DNA of 20,975 bases from a virus: the UHGV virus genome UHGV-0216266. One strand, 5' to 3'. Made by a program: the position numbers and the translations under genes. A model generated the notes under the pieces. That model ran no database searches. It saw only the letters and a program-made list of their open reading frames with translations, and was not told where the DNA came from. Positions 9,983 through 17,408 of the stretch are shown one piece after another (the first letter of the stretch is position 1; each line of letters starts with the position of its first letter).

Positions 9983-11749
9983 ATGAACACCACACTGACA
10001 CCCGCAGATCTCGATCCCCGTCGGCAGGCCATGCTGCTGTACTTTCAGGGATACCGCGTAGCCCGCATTGCTGAAATGCTGGGCGAGAAAGTTGCAACCG
10101 TTCACAGCTGGAAAAAACGCGACAAGTGGGGTGACTATGGGCCGCTGGATCAGATGCAGCTCACCACCGCCGCACGCTACTGCCAGCTCATTATGAAGGA
10201 GCACAAAGAAGGGAAAGATTTCAAAGAGATTGACCTGCTGGCGCGCCAGTCTGAGCGCCACGCGCGGATCGGCAAGTTTAACAATGGCGGCAACGAATCC
10301 GACTTAAACCCTAACGTCGCCAACCGCAACAAAGGCCCACGCCGTCAGCCGGAAAAGAATGTTTTCACCGATGAGCAGATTGAGAAGCTGGAAGAAATCT
10401 TCCATTCCTCCATGTTCAACTACCAGCGCCACTGGTGGGAAGCCGGAAAAACCAACCGCATCCGCAACCTGCTGAAGTCACGCCAGATCGGCGCGACCTT
10501 TTACTTTGCCCGTGAAGCCCTGATTGACGCCCTGCTGACCGGACGTAACCAGATTTTCCTTTCCGCCAGCAAGGCACAGGCCCACGTCTTTAAGCAGTAC
10601 ATCATCGACTTCGCCAAAGAAGTGGAGGTGGAGTTGAAAGGCGATCCGATGGTGCTTCCTAACGGGGCCACGCTTTACTTCCTCGGCACCAATGCCCGCA
10701 CGGCCCAGAGTTATCACGGCAACCTGTATCTGGATGAATATTTCTGGATACCGAAATTCCAGGAGCTGCGCAAAGTGGCTTCCGGTATGGCTATTCACAA
10801 GAAATGGCGACAAACCTATTTTTCCACGCCATCCAGCCTGACACACAGTGCTTATCCGTTCTGGTCCGGTGCGCTATTCAACCGTGGGCGCAACAAAGCA
10901 GATAAGGTGGACATCGACCTGTCCCACAGCAATCTGGCCCCCGGCCTGCTGTGCGCAGATGGGCAATACCGCCAGATTGTCACCGTGGAAGATGCAGTGC
11001 GCGGCGGATGTAACCTGTTCGACCTCGATCAGTTACGCATGGAGTACAGCCCGGACGAATACCAGAACCTGCTGATGTGCGAGTTTGTGGACGATCTCGC
11101 GTCTGTGTTCCCACTCAGCGAGCTGCAGGCGTGCATGGTGGACAACTGGGAAGTCTGGACCGACTTTCATGCACTGGCACTGCGCCCATTTGGCTGGCGC
11201 GAAGTGTGGATCGGTTATGACCCGGCGAAAGGTACGCAGAACGGCGACAGTGCCGGATGCGTGGTGGTGGCACCGCCAGCCGTGCCGGGCGGCAAGTTCC
11301 GCATTCTTGAGCGTCACCAGTGGCGCGGGATGGACTTTCGCGCCCAGGCTGACGCCATCAAAAAACTGACCGAACAGTACAACGTGACCTATATCGGCAT
11401 CGACTCAACCGGCGTTGGTCACGGGGTTTATGAGAACGTGAAAGCGTTCTTTCCTGCCGTCCGGGAGTTTGTCTACAACCCCAACGTTAAAAACGCCCTG
11501 GTACTCAAGGCCTACGACATTATCAGCCACCGCCGTCTGGAGTTTGACGCCGGGCACACCGACATTGCGCAGTCATTCATGGCAATCCGTCGCGCCACCA
11601 CCGCCAGTGGCAACCGCCCGACCTATGAAGCCAGCCGCAGCGAAGAAGCCAGCCATGCCGATCTGGCCTGGGCAACGATGCACGCACTGTTTAACGAACC
11701 GCTGCAGGGCGAATCCGCCAATACCAGCAATATTGTGGAGATTTTTTGA
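9983..11749 (+). CDS. P: Terminase large (ATPase) subunit (P2 gpP-like)
   Basis: 588-aa ORF (P2 P is ~590 aa by memory), ATG at 9983-9985. Its TGA stop overlaps the Q ATG (TGATG). Confidence 0.85.
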   Translation: MNTTLTPADLDPRRQAMLLYFQGYRVARIAEMLGEKVATVHSWKKRDKWGDYGPLDQMQLTTAARYCQLIMKEHKEGKDFKEIDLLARQSERHARIGKFNNGGNESDLNPNVANRNKGPRRQPEKNVFTDEQIEKLEEIFHSSMFNYQRHWWEAGKTNRIRNLLKSRQIGATFYFAREALIDALLTGRNQIFLSASKAQAHVFKQYIIDFAKEVEVELKGDPMVLPNGATLYFLGTNARTAQSYHGNLYLDEYFWIPKFQELRKVASGMAIHKKWRQTYFSTPSSLTHSAYPFWSGALFNRGRNKADKVDIDLSHSNLAPGLLCADGQYRQIVTVEDAVRGGCNLFDLDQLRMEYSPDEYQNLLMCEFVDDLASVFPLSELQACMVDNWEVWTDFHALALRPFGWREVWIGYDPAKGTQNGDSAGCVVVAPPAVPGGKFRILERHQWRGMDFRAQADAIKKLTEQYNVTYIGIDSTGVGHGVYENVKAFFPAVREFVYNPNVKNALVLKAYDIISHRRLEFDAGHTDIAQSFMAIRRATTASGNRPTYEASRSEEASHADLAWATMHALFNEPLQGESANTSNIVEIF

Positions 11750-12783
11750 TGGGAAAGAGTAAGAAGAACCGCGCTGCGGCGACGAAACAGATCCAGCTTA
11801 AAAGTCAAACTACAGCCGAAGCATTCAGCTTCGGCGATCCCGTTCCTGTTCTGGACCGCCGAGAATTACTGGACTATGTGGAATGCGTACAGATGGACCG
11901 TTGGTATGAGCCGCCCGTCAGCTTTGACGGACTGGCGCGCACCTTCCGCGCTGCAGTGCATCACAGTTCCCCGATTGCAGTAAAGTGCAACATTCTGACC
12001 AGTACCTACATCCCTCACCCGCTGCTCAGCCAGCAGGCTTTTTCGCGTTTTGTGCAGGACTATCTGGTATTTGGCAATGCCTATCTGGAGAAACGCACGA
12101 ACCGCTTCGGTGAAGTGATCGCCCTTGAACCTGCGCTGGCAAAATACACCCGACGCGGATTAGACCTGGATACCTACTGGTTTGTGCAATACGGTATGAC
12201 AACCCAGCCGTATCAGTTCACGAAAGGCAGCATTTTTCATCTGATGGAACCGGATATTAATCAGGAGATCTACGGCCTGCCCGGTTATCTTTCTGCCATT
12301 CCGTCAGCCCTGCTCAACGAGTCCGCCACGCTGTTCCGCCGTAAGTATTACATCAACGGCAGCCATGCAGGCTTCATCATGTATATGACTGACGCCGCGC
12401 AGAACCAGGAGGATGTGAACAACCTCCGCAACGCGATGAAAAGCGCCAAAGGTCCGGGCAACTTCCGCAACCTGTTTATGTATTCGCCCAACGGTAAAAA
12501 AGACGGCATCCAGATCATCCCACTGTCTGAGGTTGCAGCAAAGGATGAATTTCTGAACATTAAGAACGTGAGCCGCGATGACATGATGGCAGCACACCGC
12601 GTACCGCCGCAGATGATGGGCATTATTCCTAACAATACCGGCGGCTTTGGTGATGTGGAAAAAGCCAGCCGCGTCTTTGTCCGTAATGAGTTAATACCGC
12701 TACAAAAAAGACTCGAAGAACTAAATGAGTGGTTGGGGGAAAAGGTTATTTCTTTTGAACCATATAAATTTGACATTGAATAA
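11749..12783 (+). CDS. Q: Portal protein (P2 gpQ-like)
   Basis: ATG at 11749-11751 (MGKSKKNRAA..., 344 aa, matching the P2 Q length by memory). The track ORF begins one codon earlier at TTG. Co-oriented with and overlapping P. Confidence 0.85.
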   Translation: MGKSKKNRAAATKQIQLKSQTTAEAFSFGDPVPVLDRRELLDYVECVQMDRWYEPPVSFDGLARTFRAAVHHSSPIAVKCNILTSTYIPHPLLSQQAFSRFVQDYLVFGNAYLEKRTNRFGEVIALEPALAKYTRRGLDLDTYWFVQYGMTTQPYQFTKGSIFHLMEPDINQEIYGLPGYLSAIPSALLNESATLFRRKYYINGSHAGFIMYMTDAAQNQEDVNNLRNAMKSAKGPGNFRNLFMYSPNGKKDGIQIIPLSEVAAKDEFLNIKNVSRDDMMAAHRVPPQMMGIIPNNTGGFGDVEKASRVFVRNELIPLQKRLEELNEWLGEKVISFEPYKFDIE

Positions 12784-12827
12784 AAGAAATAACCACCACC
12801 AGTCACACATTGGTAATGTGTGACTGG

Positions 12828-13373
12828 TTAGCGTCCCAATCTAAAGTTTAATTTTTCTCTTGGAGTCATTGCACGCCCAATAGCCCCATCTAATAAATGA
12901 CTATTTTTCTCTAAATGTTCACGCGCCCATGGCTGTAAGTTGAAAGCAAAACCGTAGATCATATCCCCAACACTGGTGGCTCTATAAGTAATCCCCTTAG
13001 CCACAAGTCCCCCCATGACCCCATCCTCAGGCCCACACATAAGTGAATTAACACCTTCGGTAATATAAGACTTTAAATATCCTTTTTCTTCTGCTGTTAG
13101 CTTCTCAAGGTAGGAAGTGCGTACCTTCTTAGCCTGCCTTTCACCAAGTAAGTCATAGAAAGAGAGATAGACTCTTGCAACTAAATAAGATACAGACAGT
13201 AAAAATGCAGGTCCAATAAAAATCCTATACTCATTACGAAAGCCATCAACAGCCACTTTTACTGCCAAAGAGTCTGGCAGAAAAAGTATAAGACCTAAAA
13301 CACATGTAATAGCCACAAGAAATGCTGCAGGTACTTTTCGAAAAAACTCTGCAACTCCAGTTATAACGTCCAT
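12828..13373 (-). CDS. Hypothetical two-TM membrane protein (accessory gene between portal gene and cos)
   Basis: 181-aa ORF in visibly AT-rich DNA (~37-40% GC on hand-counted lines, against ~55% in flanking phage genes). ATG at 13371-13373 with a GGAGG Shine-Dalgarno 10 nt upstream. Two N-terminal hydrophobic helices (AAFLVAITCVLGLILFL, IFIGPAFLLSVSYLVARVYL) and a ~110-aa soluble C-terminal domain. No family recognised. Confidence 0.6.
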   Translation of the reverse strand: MDVITGVAEFFRKVPAAFLVAITCVLGLILFLPDSLAVKVAVDGFRNEYRIFIGPAFLLSVSYLVARVYLSFYDLLGERQAKKVRTSYLEKLTAEEKGYLKSYITEGVNSLMCGPEDGVMGGLVAKGITYRATSVGDMIYGFAFNLQPWAREHLEKNSHLLDGAIGRAMTPREKLNFRLGR

Positions 13374-13462
13374 TTTGTCTATACCTCCAACAGCGCTAAA
13401 AAGTATTTTGAAATTCTACCTCATAACTATGCCAAAAGCACTGCGTCCCCCATCAGCGCGCG

Positions 13463-13481
13463 CTCGTATCCCCGCCACGCC
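13463..13481 (-). other. Candidate cos (cohesive-end) site
   Basis: The minus strand reads GGCGTGGCGGGGATACGAG. The first 13 nt match the 19-nt cohesive end I recall for phage 186 (GGCGTGGCGGGGAAAGCAT; P2 has GGCGAGGCGGGGAAAGCAC). Orientation points toward Q, as expected. Confidence 0.5.
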
Positions 13482-13526
13482 TGCCCGCTTTATGTAGTGG
13501 TTTTCATGCAGGTGCATAATCTACGC

Positions 13527-13550
13527 AAAAGCCCGCCAGTTCTGGCGGGC
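13527..13550 (-). terminator. GC-rich hairpin (GCCCGCCAG / CTGGCGGGC) with a U4 tail on the minus strand
   Basis: Perfect 9-bp inverted repeat at 13531-13550. The minus-strand transcript would end ...hairpin-UUUUGCG. No U-tract on the plus strand. Confidence 0.4.
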
Positions 13551-13823
13551 CTTAGCAAAAACGATCCTCAAACGATCATGCAATCTCATGCAGCATAGAC
13601 ATGCACAGACGAGTAAAGCGAATCGGACTTTACGCAAGGTGAACTCCTCAGCGGGCATAATCAGTATGTCGGAAGATCTCTAAAAATGAATAATTCGGTT
13701 AACAGGTATGCTTACAAAAGCATATATTTGATTAAAAATCATGTAAGGGGGAGGATCTCAAACTGAATCGCCACGGGTTTTACAAACTTCGATAGTCTCT
13801 CTAACGTTTCGGCTGAGGTCAAA

Positions 13824-14249
13824 ATGAAAAGCTTTTACGTATTAATTTTAATTCTGGTTGCAAGCTTTGTTAGCGTCCCAGTTCAGGCGGTAACAGCTAA
13901 AAACTATGAGAAAGGAACTAAAGCTCAACAGAAATCAATATCTTACCTTTCATGTGCATTCTATGGCAGTAGCACACAATTAGATCCTAGCTACACGGAG
14001 CAAGTACCTACAGCCGATATCAAGATATTACAGAAAGCAGCTTACCACGCTTACAACGATGCGCTCTCATACTTTGGCTATGAGGAACCAGATCACGAAC
14101 AACGCATAATTGATTATGCTGAATTTGTGGCGTCGCAAGAAGCTGTGTTATGGGATAAGCCGGGAATGAATGGAAAGCAGGTAACACTAATTGCTCGTTC
14201 TCTCTACAATGAGAGTAACTGTAACTTGTTACTGGACTCAATTAAGTAG
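13824..14249 (+). CDS. Hypothetical secreted/periplasmic protein (accessory gene at the old/tin-equivalent position)
   Basis: 141-aa ORF in AT-rich DNA. ATG at 13824 with a GAGG Shine-Dalgarno 5 nt upstream. N-terminal signal peptide MKSFYVLILILVASFVSVPVQA with an AXA-type cleavage motif (VQA/VT). Mature ~119 aa with two Cys. Convergent with the DinI-like operon. No family recognised. Confidence 0.6.
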   Translation: MKSFYVLILILVASFVSVPVQAVTAKNYEKGTKAQQKSISYLSCAFYGSSTQLDPSYTEQVPTADIKILQKAAYHAYNDALSYFGYEEPDHEQRIIDYAEFVASQEAVLWDKPGMNGKQVTLIARSLYNESNCNLLLDSIK

Positions 14250-14408
14250 GAAAAAGATGGTATTTTGCCCGTAGTTTCAACCTTAATCTCCAAACCTGTC
14301 GCAGAACGGGCGTTCACTCATCAAATAAACGCCACACCTAACGCCTCACTGTACTCGTTGTTCAACCTTGCTGACGCCAGAAGCAATTTCAGACGCCAGC
14401 AACGTTTC

Positions 14409-14642
14409 TTAATGCAGCCAGCTGTCGTCTTCCCACACCTTCTGCATAATTTTCATCACTTGTTTTCTTTCTTCGTCCAGTTGCAGTCCGGTCAGTTCCA
14501 CACCGTTAGAGCTACCTTTGCGGATACGAATTACCGTTTTGGGATACAGGGGGCGCAGATTGCGGTAAAGCTCGGATTCAAGGGCGTCCAGTGTAGACTG
14601 GCTAATCTTCTGCTCTTTATCGATCATTATTTCAATGCGCAT
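14409..14642 (-). CDS. DinI-family protein (resembles the DinI-like C-terminal part of the 186 Tum antirepressor)
   Basis: ATG at 14640-14642 (MRIEIMIDKEQKISQSTLDALESELYRNLRPLYPKTVIRIRKGSSNGVELTGLQLDEERKQVMKIMQKVWEDDSWLH, 77 aa) with a GAGGTG Shine-Dalgarno. Similar to E. coli DinI (MRIEVTIAK...ETWESADDWFV) as recalled from memory. Confidence 0.7.
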   Translation of the reverse strand: MRIEIMIDKEQKISQSTLDALESELYRNLRPLYPKTVIRIRKGSSNGVELTGLQLDEERKQVMKIMQKVWEDDSWLH

Positions 14643-14652
14643 AAAAGTCACC

Positions 14653-14841
14653 TCAGCTGATGACATCCATTGAGCGGTTGTATTCGTGGGTTCTGATTTT
14701 TGCCATGAGTTCATCTGTCAGTTCAGAAACCCACTGCAGGGCCAGCCCCTTCTCTTCATCACTACACTCACTAGCCGCTACAAGCTTAAGAAAAAAATCA
14801 ATGCGCTGGAGCTTCAAAGACTCCAAAAAATAGTCCTGCAT
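14653..14841 (-). CDS. Small acidic protein, first gene of the LexA-controlled operon (possible Tum N-terminal-like module)
   Basis: 62-aa ORF. ATG at 14839-14841 preceded by GGAGG. Stop 10 nt upstream of the DinI-like start. Directly downstream of the LexA-box promoter. Confidence 0.55.
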   Translation of the reverse strand: MQDYFLESLKLQRIDFFLKLVAASECSDEEKGLALQWVSELTDELMAKIRTHEYNRSMDVIS

Positions 14842-14881
14842 CTTTCCTCCTATAACACCAAAGCAATACTGTATACATAAC

Positions 14882-14925
14882 CACTGTTTATATTTACAGT
14901 ATATAATAATCTTACTGATGTAAAA
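14882..14925 (-). promoter_or_regulatory. SOS (LexA-box) promoter
   Basis: Plus 14882-14901 cactgtttatatttacagta matches the LexA consensus TACTGT(AT)4ACAGTA, with CTGT-N8-ACAG exact at 14884-14899. On the minus strand a -10 TATACT (plus 14898-14903) overlaps the box, and a -35-like TTTTAC (plus 14920-14925) sits 16 nt away. A second half-site CTGT is at 14869-14872. Confidence 0.6.
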
Positions 14926-14993
14926 CGTTTTTTTACGTTCATCGGCCTGATATGCCTGGTATTATTAAGAGCACGAATTGTTAACCCGCGTAA

Positions 14994-17408
14994 TTAATAC
15001 AGGTTCCGCCACTTATCATCTTCCTTCAGACGCTGGTTCCGATAGAAGATACGCAGGCCTGCTCCTGACGGAATACTGCCACCGCGAAGGAGTAAATCTA
15101 CCTCTTTCTCGCTGCCATCAAATCCTCTGGACTTCAGTTCATAGACGAGCTGCTGTCGTTGATGGTCTGTAATTCGCTGTTTGTAGTTTCTACGCCGTTT
15201 CGGTTTCACCAGGCGTAACCTTGCAGCCAGTTCCCGGCGCTCTTTTTTGTTCATACTGTGCAGAAAATCGTGCAACTCCTTGTCATCCATGCGGGTAATA
15301 TCCGTTCTGGTGTCCCCATCAGCTGATTTATCTTTCTCCTGTTGGTTCAAATTTTCAGCAAGGGGACAGTTATTGCCACGAGTCCAAGGGGCGCAAGCGC
15401 CCTGGTCGGCTGCCGCCTCCTGAACGTCAACGGCTTTACGAACCATTTTCCACTTCACTGCATGAGTGCAGATCTTGCCCTCTGCAATGGGTGACCAGAT
15501 GCCATAAATACGAATGCCGTGATCGCCATAGGCGGTCGGCTCTTCGTTGATTTCATAAGCGGTTCTGATGAGGTGATATTTACGGGGAACCAGTACGCCG
15601 CCCTGCTTCATGATGTAGGTGGCAAAACAACCAGCATCAGCAGCAGCCAGAATGGCATCAAGACGCGGGTTATCCAGTACCGGCGCACCTGCTTTTTTGT
15701 CACCCTGTTGCCTTGCCGCCTGACCAGCCAGCAAGCGAAGTTCACGGTAAGCCTGACGCCCCGGAATACCAAAGAAGCGGAATTGCTGAACACGATGCAG
15801 AGACGCCCAGGCATTCACGTATTCAGCGTTATCACGCAGAGATTTACCCGTTTCCTTGCTGATCTCGCCAGCCAGACCACGACCGTCAATGTTCTTACTG
15901 ATATATTTCGCGATGTAGCTTGTCGGCGTTCCTTTGCGCGGGTTAATCAACTCAGACTTAAAGCGCGGCCCAGTGTTATTGCCCAGCTCCTCGCGGTCTT
16001 CACGGATGGCAAACTTACGCAGTAATGCAGTGATGGCACGGCGGTCTTTTTTGCGCATGAAACACAACAGGTGCCAGTGAACTGTGCCATCATGATGCGG
16101 CTCAGCCACCCGCACGCCATACCAGCGCAACCCGGCTTTGTGCATCGCCTTACGAAATGCAGCAAACATGCCGACCAGATAATCGCTGCTTTGTCTTACC
16201 GTCGCGTTTGTCCAGGTCGGGTTTGGTCTGCCGTTATTTAGCGTGGAATGGAAACGCGACGGACAGGTGATAGTGTAGAAAACGGCGCAGTCACCGCGCA
16301 TTTCCGCGATAAGCTCCAGACCTTTAACACAGGCCATCATCTCATTGCGGCGATGCGCAGGGTTGCTGCTGCTGGCGTTTACCACATCCTCCATGTCCAG
16401 CGTGTCGCCGTCTTCGTTCACCAGTTCATGAGAACGGAAAAACTCCAGCGACTTACGGCGCTGCTCACGTCTATGCATCACGGCTTCATAGCTGACATAA
16501 GGAGATGCTTTTTTGCTGACCAGGCAAACAGCGCGCAACTGCTCTTCCCGCCATTCGCAACGCATCTTCCATAATTTCCGATACCACCAGTCGGCGCACA
16601 ACATACGCGCCAGCGAACCCGGAATGAGTTCATAGGGCACGGGTTTACGGCGGTTTCTTTTCCGACGGAGTTGCTCAAACGCAGGTGGGATGACATCCAG
16701 ACGCAGGGTTTCCGCTGCCACCTTTTCCCATGTCTTGCGGATTTCTTCTGGCTTAACGTCATCGGTGGCATACAAATCACCACAAGCTGCATCAAGGCAC
16801 ATACTCATATGCGCAGCTACCAGGGTGGACAGGCGTTTCACCTGATCCTGACTCATTTCAGGCAGGATCAGCAGGCCGTCCAGCCCTTCATGGCTTGCCA
16901 TAAAGCGAAAAGATGCAGATAGCTGACTGTCGCGTACATGCTCCAGTCGTTCCAGACATGGCTTAATCGTCTCACGTAAATAGCGGGAATAAGCCTTTGG
17001 CCTGCCCAGGCTGCTGAAGTATTCAATACGTTGCATCAGCGGCTTGCTGATATGGGAAGGCTGGGCGTTGACGTCCGCCAGAATGACCATGTCTGAATTA
17101 AAACGCTGCTGCTCATGCGCCAGCTTTGCCCGGCTAATGAGCTTATCCTGCTCCATTTCGCGCTGGACAGGATCACGTGATTCATTAAAGAAATAACGCT
17201 CCCAGACCTGATCACTCAGTGCCTCGCGGCGCAACTGTTCCTGCTCGTTATCGGCAGCGTACAGAGTGATCAGGTTTGAAAGCGTAGAAACCGGCGCAAC
17301 TTCCGCCGGGTCCAGATAAGGGTTAATGGCCTTTTTCGTGCTGTTCCATGAGAATGCTGCGGCAGCCTCGTTAAAGCCGCAGCAGTTGTTCATATCGGCA
17401 TGACTCAT
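14994..17408 (-). CDS. A: Replication initiation endonuclease (P2 gpA-like rolling-circle initiator)
   Basis: 804-aa ORF. ATG at 17406-17408 overlaps the Dam stop (ATGA). Contains the His-hydrophobic-His motif VHWHLL typical of HUH-type initiators. Large size and position next to the early region match P2 A / 186 A. Confidence 0.8.

What the first reader, a model, noticed from the sequence alone, without database searches (positions are those of the whole stretch)
13824..14249. Secreted 141-aa protein at the old/tin-equivalent slot
The ORF has a canonical Sec signal peptide (MKSFYVLILILVASFVSVPVQA, AXA cleavage motif) and two cysteines in the mature part, suggesting a periplasmic disulfide-bonded protein. 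It is convergent with the SOS-controlled operon and would sit at the right end of the linear phage genome. A periplasmic prophage product at a defence hotspot could block DNA injection or receptor function of incoming phage, or be a lysogenic-conversion factor.
Basis: inference. Interest (0 to 1): 0.65.

Follow-up and report, generated by a model that had tools for sequence, protein, structure and literature searches.

The report
Secreted orphan protein beside prophage cos
A P2/186-like prophage carries, next to its DNA-packaging site where such phages keep anti-phage genes, a small self-contained gene for an exported, all-helical protein with two invariant cysteines; it has no characterised relative, and it most plausibly acts in the periplasm to keep other phages (or other envelope-attacking agents) out, which is untested.

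Summary
Window 13824-14249 (+) is a real gene: dN/dS is 0.14-0.20, and it is at least 99% identical at the DNA level in 101 of 5426 complete E. coli genomes. It encodes a 141-aa protein. All 22 known relatives keep a Sec-type signal peptide (cleavage VQA|VT here, which fits the -3/-1 rule but is not literally AXA). All have exactly two cysteines in the mature part and an acidic mature domain.

The gene sits on a ~730-bp cassette (13607-14337) between the conserved cos block and the LexA-controlled DinI/Tum-like operon. This is the position of old/tin in P2 and orf97 in 186. The slot is empty or holds other cargo in sibling prophages. The gene co-occurs with at least 19 different cargoes on the other side of cos, so it is an autonomous module.

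AlphaFold gives a confident five-helix model (pLDDT 95). It has no significant match in PDB or BFVD. Pfam, NCBIfam and PADLOC give no hit; PHROGs gives only phrog_7437, of unknown function. Relatives lie only in temperate-phage and phage-plasmid accessory positions in Enterobacterales.

Function is unproven. My best reading, at about 0.35, is a Spackle-like periplasmic exclusion factor. An orphan periplasmic immunity or inhibitor protein is the main rival. Interest is moderate.

The parts
13824..14249 (+). Complete ORF, 141 codons plus stop. RefSeq WP_000834899.1 'hypothetical protein'; phrog_7437.
   Evidence: dN/dS is 0.14-0.20. The copy is 100% identical in 29 of 32 IMG/VR loci.
13824..13889 (+). 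Signal-peptide coding part (residues 1-22, MKSFYVLILILVASFVSVPVQA). Predicted signal peptidase I site is VQA|VT.
   Evidence: Heuristic features. The same architecture is present in all 22 family members while the sequence itself is not conserved. In the full-length AF2 model this segment is a separate low-confidence helix.
13890..14246 (+). Mature domain: 119 aa, pI 5.06, predicted five-helix bundle. Invariant C44 and C133 give a putative disulfide linking helix 1 to the last helix. W110, Y128 and N132 are also invariant in A2.
   Evidence: AF2 on the 21-sequence alignment gives pLDDT 95.4 and pTM 0.88. Conservation. The disulfide itself is inferred; no coordinates were available.
13815..13818 (+). 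Shine-Dalgarno GAGG, 5 nt upstream of the ATG.
   Evidence: Read directly from the sequence. Conserved in L042 and L043.
13699..13728 (+). Promoter-like site TTAACA-18-TATATT (10/12), inside the cassette and ~95 nt upstream of the ATG. A candidate own promoter.
   Evidence: This is a consensus match only, and the region has no excess of such sites over shuffles. It is partly conserved in L042 and L043.
13607..14337 (+). ~730-bp cargo cassette carrying only this gene. About 40% GC against 52% for the whole window.
   Evidence: In sibling prophage L011 the cos block abuts the DinI-downstream block with ~7 bp between them. Composition.
13456..13611 (.). Conserved cos block flanking the cassette on the left. 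The cohesive-end equivalent is the reverse complement of 13463-13481.
   Evidence: Present at 89-100% identity in all sibling loci compared, with variable DNA on both sides. Compared with the annotated cos of phage 186.
14338..14480 (.). Conserved right flank of the cassette: 14338-14408 is the region downstream of the DinI-like gene, and 14409-14480 overlaps the 3' end of that gene's ORF (14409-14714, minus strand).

Best explanation
**Shown**
- This is an autonomous, single-gene accessory cassette.
- It sits in the cos-proximal cargo slot of a P2/186-like prophage.

**Predicted, not shown**
- The cassette appears to carry its own promoter-like site and ribosome-binding site.
- Its product carries a predicted cleavable Sec signal peptide.
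- The remaining 119-aa mature domain is acidic and is predicted to fold as a five-helix bundle.

**Inferred**
- The gene is expressed from the prophage.
- The protein is exported by Sec, cleaved after VQA22, and oxidised by DsbA to a C44-C133 disulfide that ties helix 1 to the C-terminal helix.
- It then acts in the periplasm as a stoichiometric binder or inhibitor of a component that an incoming phage must use there. Candidates are a tail-associated peptidoglycan hydrolase, an ejection or tape-measure protein, or the periplasmic face of a host entry factor.
- Superinfecting phages would therefore adsorb but fail to deliver DNA.

This is how T4 Spackle works, but the protein is not a detectable relative of Spackle.
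For: **Real, selected gene**
- dN/dS is 0.14-0.20.
- DNA at least 99% identical covers the gene in 101 of 5426 E. coli genomes.
- The exact protein is found on at least 1000 contigs.

**Export**
- Signal-peptide features are present in 22 of 22 family members, although the sequence there is not conserved.
- There are exactly two cysteines in the mature part, invariant in A2.

**Fold**
- The AF2 model is confident: pLDDT 95.4, five helices.

**Location**
- The gene lies between cos and the LexA-box/DinI operon.
- P2 carries old and tin in this gpA-gpQ cos-proximal hotspot, which is a documented hotspot of anti-phage systems (PMC9122126).
- Phage 186 carries orf97 there, annotated 'expression from plasmid blocks 186 infection'.
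- Sibling prophages hold a TPR-HEPN_LA2681 protein or other cargo in the same sub-slot, or nothing.
- The adjacent Q-cos sub-slot holds Septu PtuA, AbiU, a ThsB-like TIR protein, a helicase system, or SieB.

**Autonomy**
- The same cassette occurs with at least 19 different Q-cos cargo types.
- It persists at 92% nucleotide identity in a lineage whose terminase and portal genes are only 68% identical.
- WP_000834899 appears 32 times in the held text of Rousset supplementary file 6. The two passages shown are hotspot-locus rows with different partner genes.

**Architecture analogy**
- T4 Spackle is also a signal peptide plus a small helical bundle plus one disulfide, and it inhibits the gp5 lysozyme in the periplasm (PMC7677548).
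- All 21 mature family members are acidic, pI 4.5-5.9. Spackle binds a basic patch on the lysozyme.
Against: - There is no experimental datum of any kind for this family.
- PADLOC gives no hit and no annotated PHROG matches.
- Distant relatives lie in generic positions: next to an integrase, at an ssrA att site, or inside co-directional arrays of small genes near ParA/ParG. Those positions equally host virulence or fitness morons or lytic-cycle genes.
- The promoter call is a weak consensus match, and no terminator was found.
- Expression in the lysogen is assumed.
- The disulfide is inferred without coordinates.
- An acidic pI is common among periplasmic proteins.
Confidence: 0.35

Rival explanations
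1. Orphan periplasmic immunity or inhibitor protein acting on non-phage agents. It would neutralise a peptidoglycan- or envelope-targeting enzyme delivered from outside, such as a T6SS amidase or muramidase effector, a pesticin or colicin-M-type bacteriocin, or animal lysozyme. That would make it a lysogenic-conversion fitness factor rather than an anti-phage factor.
For: - It shares the physical features of many periplasmic immunity proteins: exported, small, helical, two conserved cysteines, acidic.
- Prophage-edge positions next to int or att are typical of conversion morons.
- The SSU5-like phage-plasmids that carry a homologue also carry a 'lysozyme inhibitor LprI family' gene ~3 kb away.
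Against: - No cognate effector or toxin gene lies next to any family member examined.
- There is no sequence match to any solved immunity protein.
- The family is confined to phage and phage-plasmid DNA. It was not confirmed in any of the 185,579 species-representative genomes with the patterns used.
Confidence: 0.25
2. The gene serves the phage's own lytic cycle rather than the lysogen. Examples would be a periplasmic regulator of lysis timing (antiholin-, Spackle- or RI-like, active during infection), or protection of the infected cell from lysis-from-without.
For: - In several distant relatives the gene is embedded in co-directional arrays of small genes rather than standing alone: L004, L006, L050, L051.
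- T4 Spackle and RI are themselves expressed during infection (established knowledge; PMC7677548).
Against: - In the P2-like copies the gene is transcribed opposite to every neighbouring phage operon, from inside its own cassette.
- It is dispensable: the slot is empty in L011, and only about 9% of E. coli genomes with this prophage type carry it (101 of 1081).
- It is far from the lysis genes.
Confidence: 0.12
3. General periplasmic stress or fitness factor, such as an HdeA-, Spy- or CpxP-like chaperone or a small-molecule or metal binder, which benefits the host in the gut.
For: - It is a small, acidic, helical periplasmic protein with two invariant cysteines that could form one disulfide, which is broadly the HdeA class (HdeA properties are from my own knowledge).
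Against: - No invariant His, Met or Cys pattern suggests metal or haem binding.
- Restriction to phages and rapid divergence (24-40% identity among members) fit an arms-race role better.
Confidence: 0.1
4. The N-terminus is not cleaved, or is lipidated, so the protein is membrane-tethered: an inner-membrane signal anchor or a lipoprotein facing the periplasm. It would then act at a membrane like Imm, SieA, Cor or Llp rather than as a soluble factor.
For: - Cleavage was assessed only with heuristics; SignalP was not available.
- One variant (P0005) has LSAC in its signal peptide, a possible lipobox.
- One database source names a variant 'outer membrane lipoprotein-sorting protein'.
Against: - The hydrophobic core is short, about 13-15 residues, and is followed by a helix-breaking proline and a -3/-1 site in the window protein.
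- There is no cysteine at +1 in 20 of 22 members.
- The LolA-derived name rests on an 11-bit hit against a curated cutoff of 157 bits.
Confidence: 0.08

Closest known systems
T4 Spackle (Sp, gp61.3), a periplasmic superinfection-exclusion protein
   Same: - A cleavable export signal, a small all-helical bundle and a single disulfide linking an N-terminal helix to a C-terminal helix.
- A soluble periplasmic protein encoded by a phage.
- Spackle is a stoichiometric inhibitor of an incoming phage's tail lysozyme (PMC7677548).
   Different: - There is no detectable sequence or fold relationship.
- The mature domain is 119 aa against 75 aa.
- Spackle is an early gene of a virulent phage. This is cargo of temperate phages, presumably expressed from the prophage.
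- The target is unknown.
P2 old and tin, and 186 orf97 (positional equivalents)
   Same: - They occupy the same cos-proximal slot between the end of the replication/SOS operon and cos.
- They are dispensable cargo.
- P2 old and tin are named 'accessory phage exclusion genes' (PMC9122126). The 186 orf97 annotation says expression from a plasmid blocks 186 infection.
   Different: - Those proteins are cytoplasmic: Old is an ATPase-TOPRIM nuclease (title and abstract of bioRxiv 10.64898/2026.07.10.737580).
- This protein has no sequence similarity to any PADLOC model and is exported.
- orf97 is co-directional with tum, whereas this gene is convergent with the operon.
Envelope-level exclusion proteins of temperate phages (P22 SieA, P1 Sim, HK97 gp15, T5 Llp, lambdoid Cor)
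   Same: - They are expressed by a resident phage.
- They act at the envelope to stop DNA delivery or receptor use by incoming phages (P22 SieA: PMC10883804; T5 Llp: PMC9586334; the rest from my own knowledge).
   Different: - Most are integral membrane proteins or lipoproteins. This one is predicted to be soluble.
- No PHROG with such an annotation matches.
Periplasmic T6SS immunity proteins such as Tai4
   Same: - Small, exported and helical.
   Different: - The match is within the noise of generic helical hits.
- No effector gene is adjacent.
- The family is phage-restricted.
HXS periplasmic anti-phage system (PMC13128918)
   Same: - A periplasmic effector proposed to block phage DNA entry. 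This shows that periplasmic defence effectors exist outside classical superinfection exclusion.
   Different: - HXS needs rSAM-enzyme maturation of a His-X-Ser repeat peptide and is a multi-gene system.
- This is a single gene with no repeats.

Membership tests
Sec (signal peptidase I) secreted proteins | Basic n-region, a 7-15-residue hydrophobic core, and small residues at -3/-1 followed by a polar mature N-terminus | tested here: met
   Heuristic scan: MK, then a hydrophobic core (best 10-residue Kyte-Doolittle window 3.26), then VQA|VT. The same layout is found in 22 of 22 family members. SignalP itself was not available.
Bacterial lipoproteins (signal peptidase II) | Lipobox [LVI][ASTVI][GAS]C with Cys at +1 | tested here: not met
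   There is no cysteine in residues 1-43 of the window protein. Only variant P0005 has LSAC.
P2-like cos-proximal hotspot cargo (Rousset et al. 2022) | Lies between replication gene A and portal gene Q, adjacent to cos | tested here: met
   Portal 11746-12783, cos block 13456-13611, target 13824-14249, A 14994-17408. The hotspot definition is from PMC9122126.
P2-like cos-proximal hotspot cargo (Rousset et al. 2022) | Presence or absence and replacement among otherwise syntenic prophages | tested here: met
   The slot is empty in L011 and holds HEPN_LA2681 or other genes in L012-L014. WP_000834899 occurs 32 times in the held text of their supplementary file 6, and the passages shown are hotspot-locus rows.
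P2-like cos-proximal hotspot cargo (Rousset et al. 2022) | Confers resistance to phage infection | not testable with these tools
   This needs plaque assays. The protein sequence was not found in the held, truncated text of their system table.
T4 Spackle family | Sequence or fold homology to Spackle | tested here: not met
T4 Spackle family | Exported helical bundle with one disulfide | tested here: inconclusive
   The signal peptide, helical model and two invariant cysteines are present. Cys-Cys proximity could not be measured because no coordinates are returned.
T4 Spackle family | Binds and inhibits a tail-associated lysozyme | not testable with these tools
   Needs biochemistry or complex prediction.
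Known anti-phage defence families (PADLOC-DB v2) | HMM match to any model | tested here: not met
   0 families at E up to 1.
SieB (PF14163) | Pfam match | tested here: not met
   The target has no Pfam hit. The neighbouring gene 12828-13373 is the SieB-family member.
Tai4-type T6SS immunity proteins | Specific fold match, and adjacency to a cognate effector | tested here: not met
LolA (a name given to a variant by one source) | NCBIfam or Pfam LolA model above its cutoff | tested here: not met
   NF000666 scored 11.3 bits, E 0.23, against a cutoff of 157. The name is seen.

The most novel reading that the evidence does not exclude
This is the founding member of a previously unrecognised family of soluble periplasmic anti-phage effectors with a fold not represented in the PDB. 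Temperate phages of Enterobacterales (P2/186-like prophages, SSU5-like phage-plasmids and others) would spread it as a one-gene cassette. It would block genome entry of heterologous phages by binding a periplasm-exposed phage or host component.
Probability: 0.3. Interest if true: 0.7.

Novelty: new variant of a known kind. Interest (0 to 1): 0.45.

Why it matters
Almost all catalogued defence systems act in the cytoplasm or at the inner membrane. Soluble periplasmic factors that stop phages before DNA entry are few: T4 Spackle, P1 Sim and the recently described HXS.

This gene has several properties that make it a good candidate for another one:
- It is a one-gene, 0.7-kb cassette.
- It is common; the exact protein is found on at least 1000 public contigs.
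- Its fold is confidently predicted but unmatched.
- It is trivially clonable.

A positive result would add a new entry-blocking mechanism. It would also explain why the cassette is kept while the neighbouring cargo turns over. A negative result would mark it as a conversion or immunity moron, and would caution against reading every hotspot gene as defence.

Tried and rejected
**Searches that found nothing useful**
- Pfam, NCBIfam and PADLOC scans of the target gave no hits, or only sub-threshold noise to PepQ and LolA.
- PHROGs gave only phrog_7437, of unknown function.
- megablast of 13600-14400 against the phage collection matched only the DinI end. tblastn of the protein against the phage collection found nothing.
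- Foldseek against BFVD found nothing with E of 0.001 or less.
- AFDB libraries were not available.
- Profile searches against PDB sequences were empty.
- Rfam on 12500-15200 gave no RNA family.
- RNA folding of the 14240-14420 gap showed no terminator and a z-score of about 0.
- Paper searches for WP_000834899 and for phrog_7437 returned 0 papers.
- The supplements of the 2026 NAR paper on P2 hotspots are not held.

**Searches that failed technically or were not confirmed**
- The same scan with a closer alignment gave 56 pattern matches, none confirmed.

**Ideas tested and dropped**
- The P2 cos sequence recalled from memory did not match within 3 mismatches. The cos site was instead located by conservation and by comparison with the annotated 186 cos.
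- I tested whether the 62-aa ORF plus the DinI-like ORF are a split 186 Tum. Only the DinI half is similar.
- I tested whether L013's slot gene is a 186 orf97 homologue. It is not.

Full report
**1. What the window is**

ORF content and family scans identify a P2/186-like prophage, read in the orientation opposite to the usual P2 map.

| Feature | Coordinates | Evidence |
|---|---|---|
| Terminase | 9983-11749 (+) | |
| Portal | 11746-12783 (+) | |
| SieB-family gene | 12828-13373 (-) | PF14163, E 4.5e-25, |
| Target ORF | 13824-14249 (+) | |
| DinI-like gene | 14409-14714 (-) | RefSeq annotates a 234-nt (77-aa) CDS here; PF06183; 41% identical to the C-terminal half of 186 Tum |
| 62-aa ORF, phrog_698 | 14653-14841 (-) | |
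| Replication endonuclease A | 14994-17408 (-) | |

A perfect LexA box (CTGTTTATATTTACAG, 14884-14899) precedes the 62-aa/DinI operon. This parallels the LexA-controlled p95-tum-orf97 operon annotated in phage 186.

**2. Where cos is, and what the slot is**

A ~150-bp block, window 13456-13611, is conserved at 89-100% identity in every sibling prophage examined. The DNA on both sides of it differs between prophages.

The reverse complement of 13463-13481 reads GGCGTGGCGGGGATACGAG. The annotated 19-nt cohesive end of 186 is GGCGTGGCGGGGAAAGCAT. The target therefore lies about 340 bp from cos on the replication-gene side. That is the right end of the packaged genome.

- In 186 this place holds orf97, annotated 'expression from plasmid blocks 186 infection'.
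- In P2 the gpA-gpQ cos-proximal locus holds old and tin (PMC9122126).

In sibling prophage L011 the cos block abuts the DinI-downstream block with about 7 bp between them. The target therefore rides on a ~730-bp cassette, 13607-14337. The ORF is 40% GC, against 52% for the window.

Other siblings carry different cargo in the same sub-slot: a TPR-HEPN_LA2681 protein in L012, and unknown genes in L013 and L014.

The sub-slot on the other side of cos, between portal and cos, holds the following:

| Locus | Cargo in the portal-cos sub-slot |
|---|---|
| Window | SieB family |
| L001 | Septu-like PtuA + HNH |
| L011 | STM2766/2767 helicase pair |
| L012 | AbiU |
| L013 | ThsB-like TIR + unknown |

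**3. The gene is real and autonomous**

- DNA at least 99% identical covers the gene in 101 of 5426 complete E. coli genomes. That is about 9% of the 1081 genomes that carry this DinI-A region.
- The exact protein is on at least 1000 public contigs, always named hypothetical.
- Thirty-two IMG/VR loci carry it. Wherever the flanks are present in the P2-like loci, the arrangement is the same: cos block, 217 bp, ORF, 88 bp, DinI-downstream block.
- Across 30 loci the portal-cos interval next to it falls into 19 unrelated cargo types, including a nearly empty one.
- In L043 the terminase and portal genes are only 68% identical to the window, yet the ORF is 92% identical.
- Pairwise dN/dS among the diverged copies is 0.14-0.20.
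- WP_000834899 occurs 32 times in the held text of Rousset et al. supplementary file 6. The two passages shown are hotspot-locus rows that call it 'hypothetical', one with HIRAN and one with DUF262/DUF1524 neighbours.
- I could not find it in the stored, truncated part of their curated system table.
- The window's SieB is their system #89.

**4. The protein**

- Residues 1-22 form a typical Sec signal: an MK n-region, a hydrophobic core, P18, and V-Q-A at -3 to -1. This is not literally AXA, but it fits the -3/-1 rule.
- The mature 119-aa part has pI 5.06 and two cysteines, C44 and C133.
- An exhaustive HMMER search of 1.84 billion cluster representatives found 17 proteins at E of 0.001 or less. 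Three of these are weak, multi-stretch matches to much longer proteins. The related proteins retrieved are 126-168 aa, or 126-145 aa once the apparently mis-started P0012 is set aside.
- The word-indexed search of 5.8 billion proteins added a few more.
- Those with an organism name are from Enterobacterales: Escherichia, Klebsiella, Enterobacter, Hafnia, Salmonella, Citrobacter and Rahnella.
- All 22 members examined keep a signal peptide of varying sequence and exactly two cysteines in the mature part. All 21 mature domains in alignment A3 are acidic, pI 4.5-5.9.
- Invariant positions in the 16-sequence alignment are C44, W110, Y128, N132 and C133. Y41 and A99 are nearly invariant. The best-conserved stretch is IIDYAEFVASQEAVLWDKPGMN.

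**5. Structure**

| Model input | pLDDT | pTM | Note |
|---|---|---|---|
| Full-length sequence, 7 sequences | 76 | 0.68 | Signal peptide forms a detached helix |
| Mature domain, 21 sequences | 95.4 | 0.88 | Five helices: 3-31, 41-62, 69-88, 98-108, 111-118 |

The invariant cysteines sit in helix 1 and at the start of the last helix. A disulfide is likely, but it is inferred because no coordinates are returned.

- Foldseek against PDB and BFVD gave nothing significant.
- The AFDB was not available.
- Profile searches against all PDB sequences were empty.

**6. Contexts of distant relatives**

| Locus or protein | Context |
|---|---|
| H37-H48, L002, L003 (~31% identical) | Twelve plasmids of 105-232 kb; nine typed non-mobilizable. 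L002 and L003 are IncFIB and look like SSU5-like phage-plasmids (my interpretation). There the gene is a lone plus-strand gene among minus-strand genes. |
| P0009 | Directly after a prophage integrase |
| L045 (77% identical copy) | Followed by a strong terminator and then the 3' end of ssrA, so it is at the att edge of a non-P2 prophage |
| P0026 | At a prophage edge near umuDC, DinI and a tailspike |
| P0016, P0017, P0010, P0013 | Inside co-directional arrays of small phage genes, two of them near ParA/ParG |

The family therefore looks like phage accessory cargo, but it is not always in a recognised defence hotspot and is not always a stand-alone unit.

**7. Interpretation**

What is shown: a selected, autonomous accessory gene sits in the P2-type cos-proximal hotspot. 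What is strongly predicted: its product is exported, and the mature part is a small, acidic helical bundle.

The mechanism is inferred. The closest working analogy is T4 Spackle. Spackle is a 75-aa mature helical bundle with one disulfide. It is exported to the periplasm, where it binds the gp5 tail lysozyme and blocks superinfection (PMC7677548).

I commit to a Spackle-like periplasmic entry-exclusion role at about 0.35. This rests on the location (old/tin, orf97, HEPN and other defence cargo in the same slot), the export, the phage restriction and the rapid divergence.

The rivals, with my confidence in each:
- An orphan periplasmic immunity or inhibitor protein acting on T6SS effectors, bacteriocins or lysozyme (0.25).
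- A role in the phage's own lytic cycle (0.12).
- A general periplasmic fitness or chaperone factor (0.10).
- A membrane-tethered rather than soluble form (0.08).

The protein is not a member of any named family. Every membership test by sequence or fold failed.

**8. Novelty and score**

The kind of thing, a prophage moron encoding an exported protein in a known hotspot, is familiar. The protein has already been listed, unnamed, in a published hotspot catalogue. The family itself is uncharacterised and its confident fold has no match, so I rate it a new variant of a known kind.

Interest is moderate at 0.45. It is not surprising in itself. It is nevertheless a cheap and well-defined candidate for a rare class, soluble periplasmic anti-phage effectors (compare HXS, PMC13128918).

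Noticed in passing
window 12828-13373 (-): A SieB-family gene (PF14163, E 4.5e-25; 181 aa; listed with 2 TM segments) fills the portal-cos sub-slot. It is identical to system #89 ('SieB', 39 occurrences) of Rousset et al. 2022 Table S5B. None of the 32 IMG/VR loci that carry the target has it.
   Followed up: partly
window 14884-14899, with ORFs 14653-14841 (-) and 14409-14714 (-): A perfect LexA box, CTGTTTATATTTACAG, lies upstream of a 62-aa ORF (phrog_698) and a DinI-like ORF. The DinI-like ORF is 41% identical to the C-terminal half of the 186 antirepressor Tum. The 62-aa ORF shows no similarity to the Tum N-terminus, so whether this pair acts as an SOS antirepressor is open.
   Followed up: partly
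window 13456-13611: The ~150-bp cos block is conserved in all sibling prophages, with variable cargo on both sides. The cohesive-end equivalent (reverse complement of 13463-13481, GGCGTGGCGGGGATACGAG) shares its first 13 bases with 186 cos and then diverges. RefSeq annotates a pseudogene ('hypothetical protein, internal stop') over this block in L001, which is probably not a gene.
   Followed up: partly
window 12798-12828: A hairpin with a 14-bp stem lies exactly between the portal stop codon and the SieB stop codon. It looks like a bidirectional terminator.
   Followed up: no
L002 5573-5992 and L003 5989-6405 (plasmids NZ_CP010244.1 and NZ_CP134668.1): A ~31%-identical homologue lies on ~105-116-kb non-mobilizable IncFIB plasmids that look like SSU5-like phage-plasmids. 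It is a lone gene opposed to its neighbours, next to a DUF4942 gene and ~3 kb from a 'lysozyme inhibitor LprI family' gene.
   Followed up: partly
L045 8001-9020: A 77%-identical copy lies in a non-P2 prophage. It is followed by a strong intrinsic terminator and then the 3' end of ssrA (tmRNA), so it sits at the att-site edge of the prophage. About 60 bp upstream of the ATG is still alignable with the P2-type cassette.
   Followed up: partly
P0005 (Enterobacter roggenkampii variant) and P0029: P0005 has LSAC inside its signal peptide, a possible lipobox, unlike the rest of the family. One source names P0029 'outer membrane lipoprotein-sorting protein'. That name rests on an 11-bit LolA hit against a 157-bit cutoff and is spurious.
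   Followed up: partly
L001 2775-4675; L012 505-2244 and 2646-4223; L013 2015-3363: Sibling prophages carry Septu-like PtuA + HNH, AbiU plus a TPR-HEPN_LA2681 protein on opposite sides of cos, and a ThsB-like TIR protein with an unknown partner. This illustrates two independent cargo sub-slots separated by cos.
   Followed up: partly
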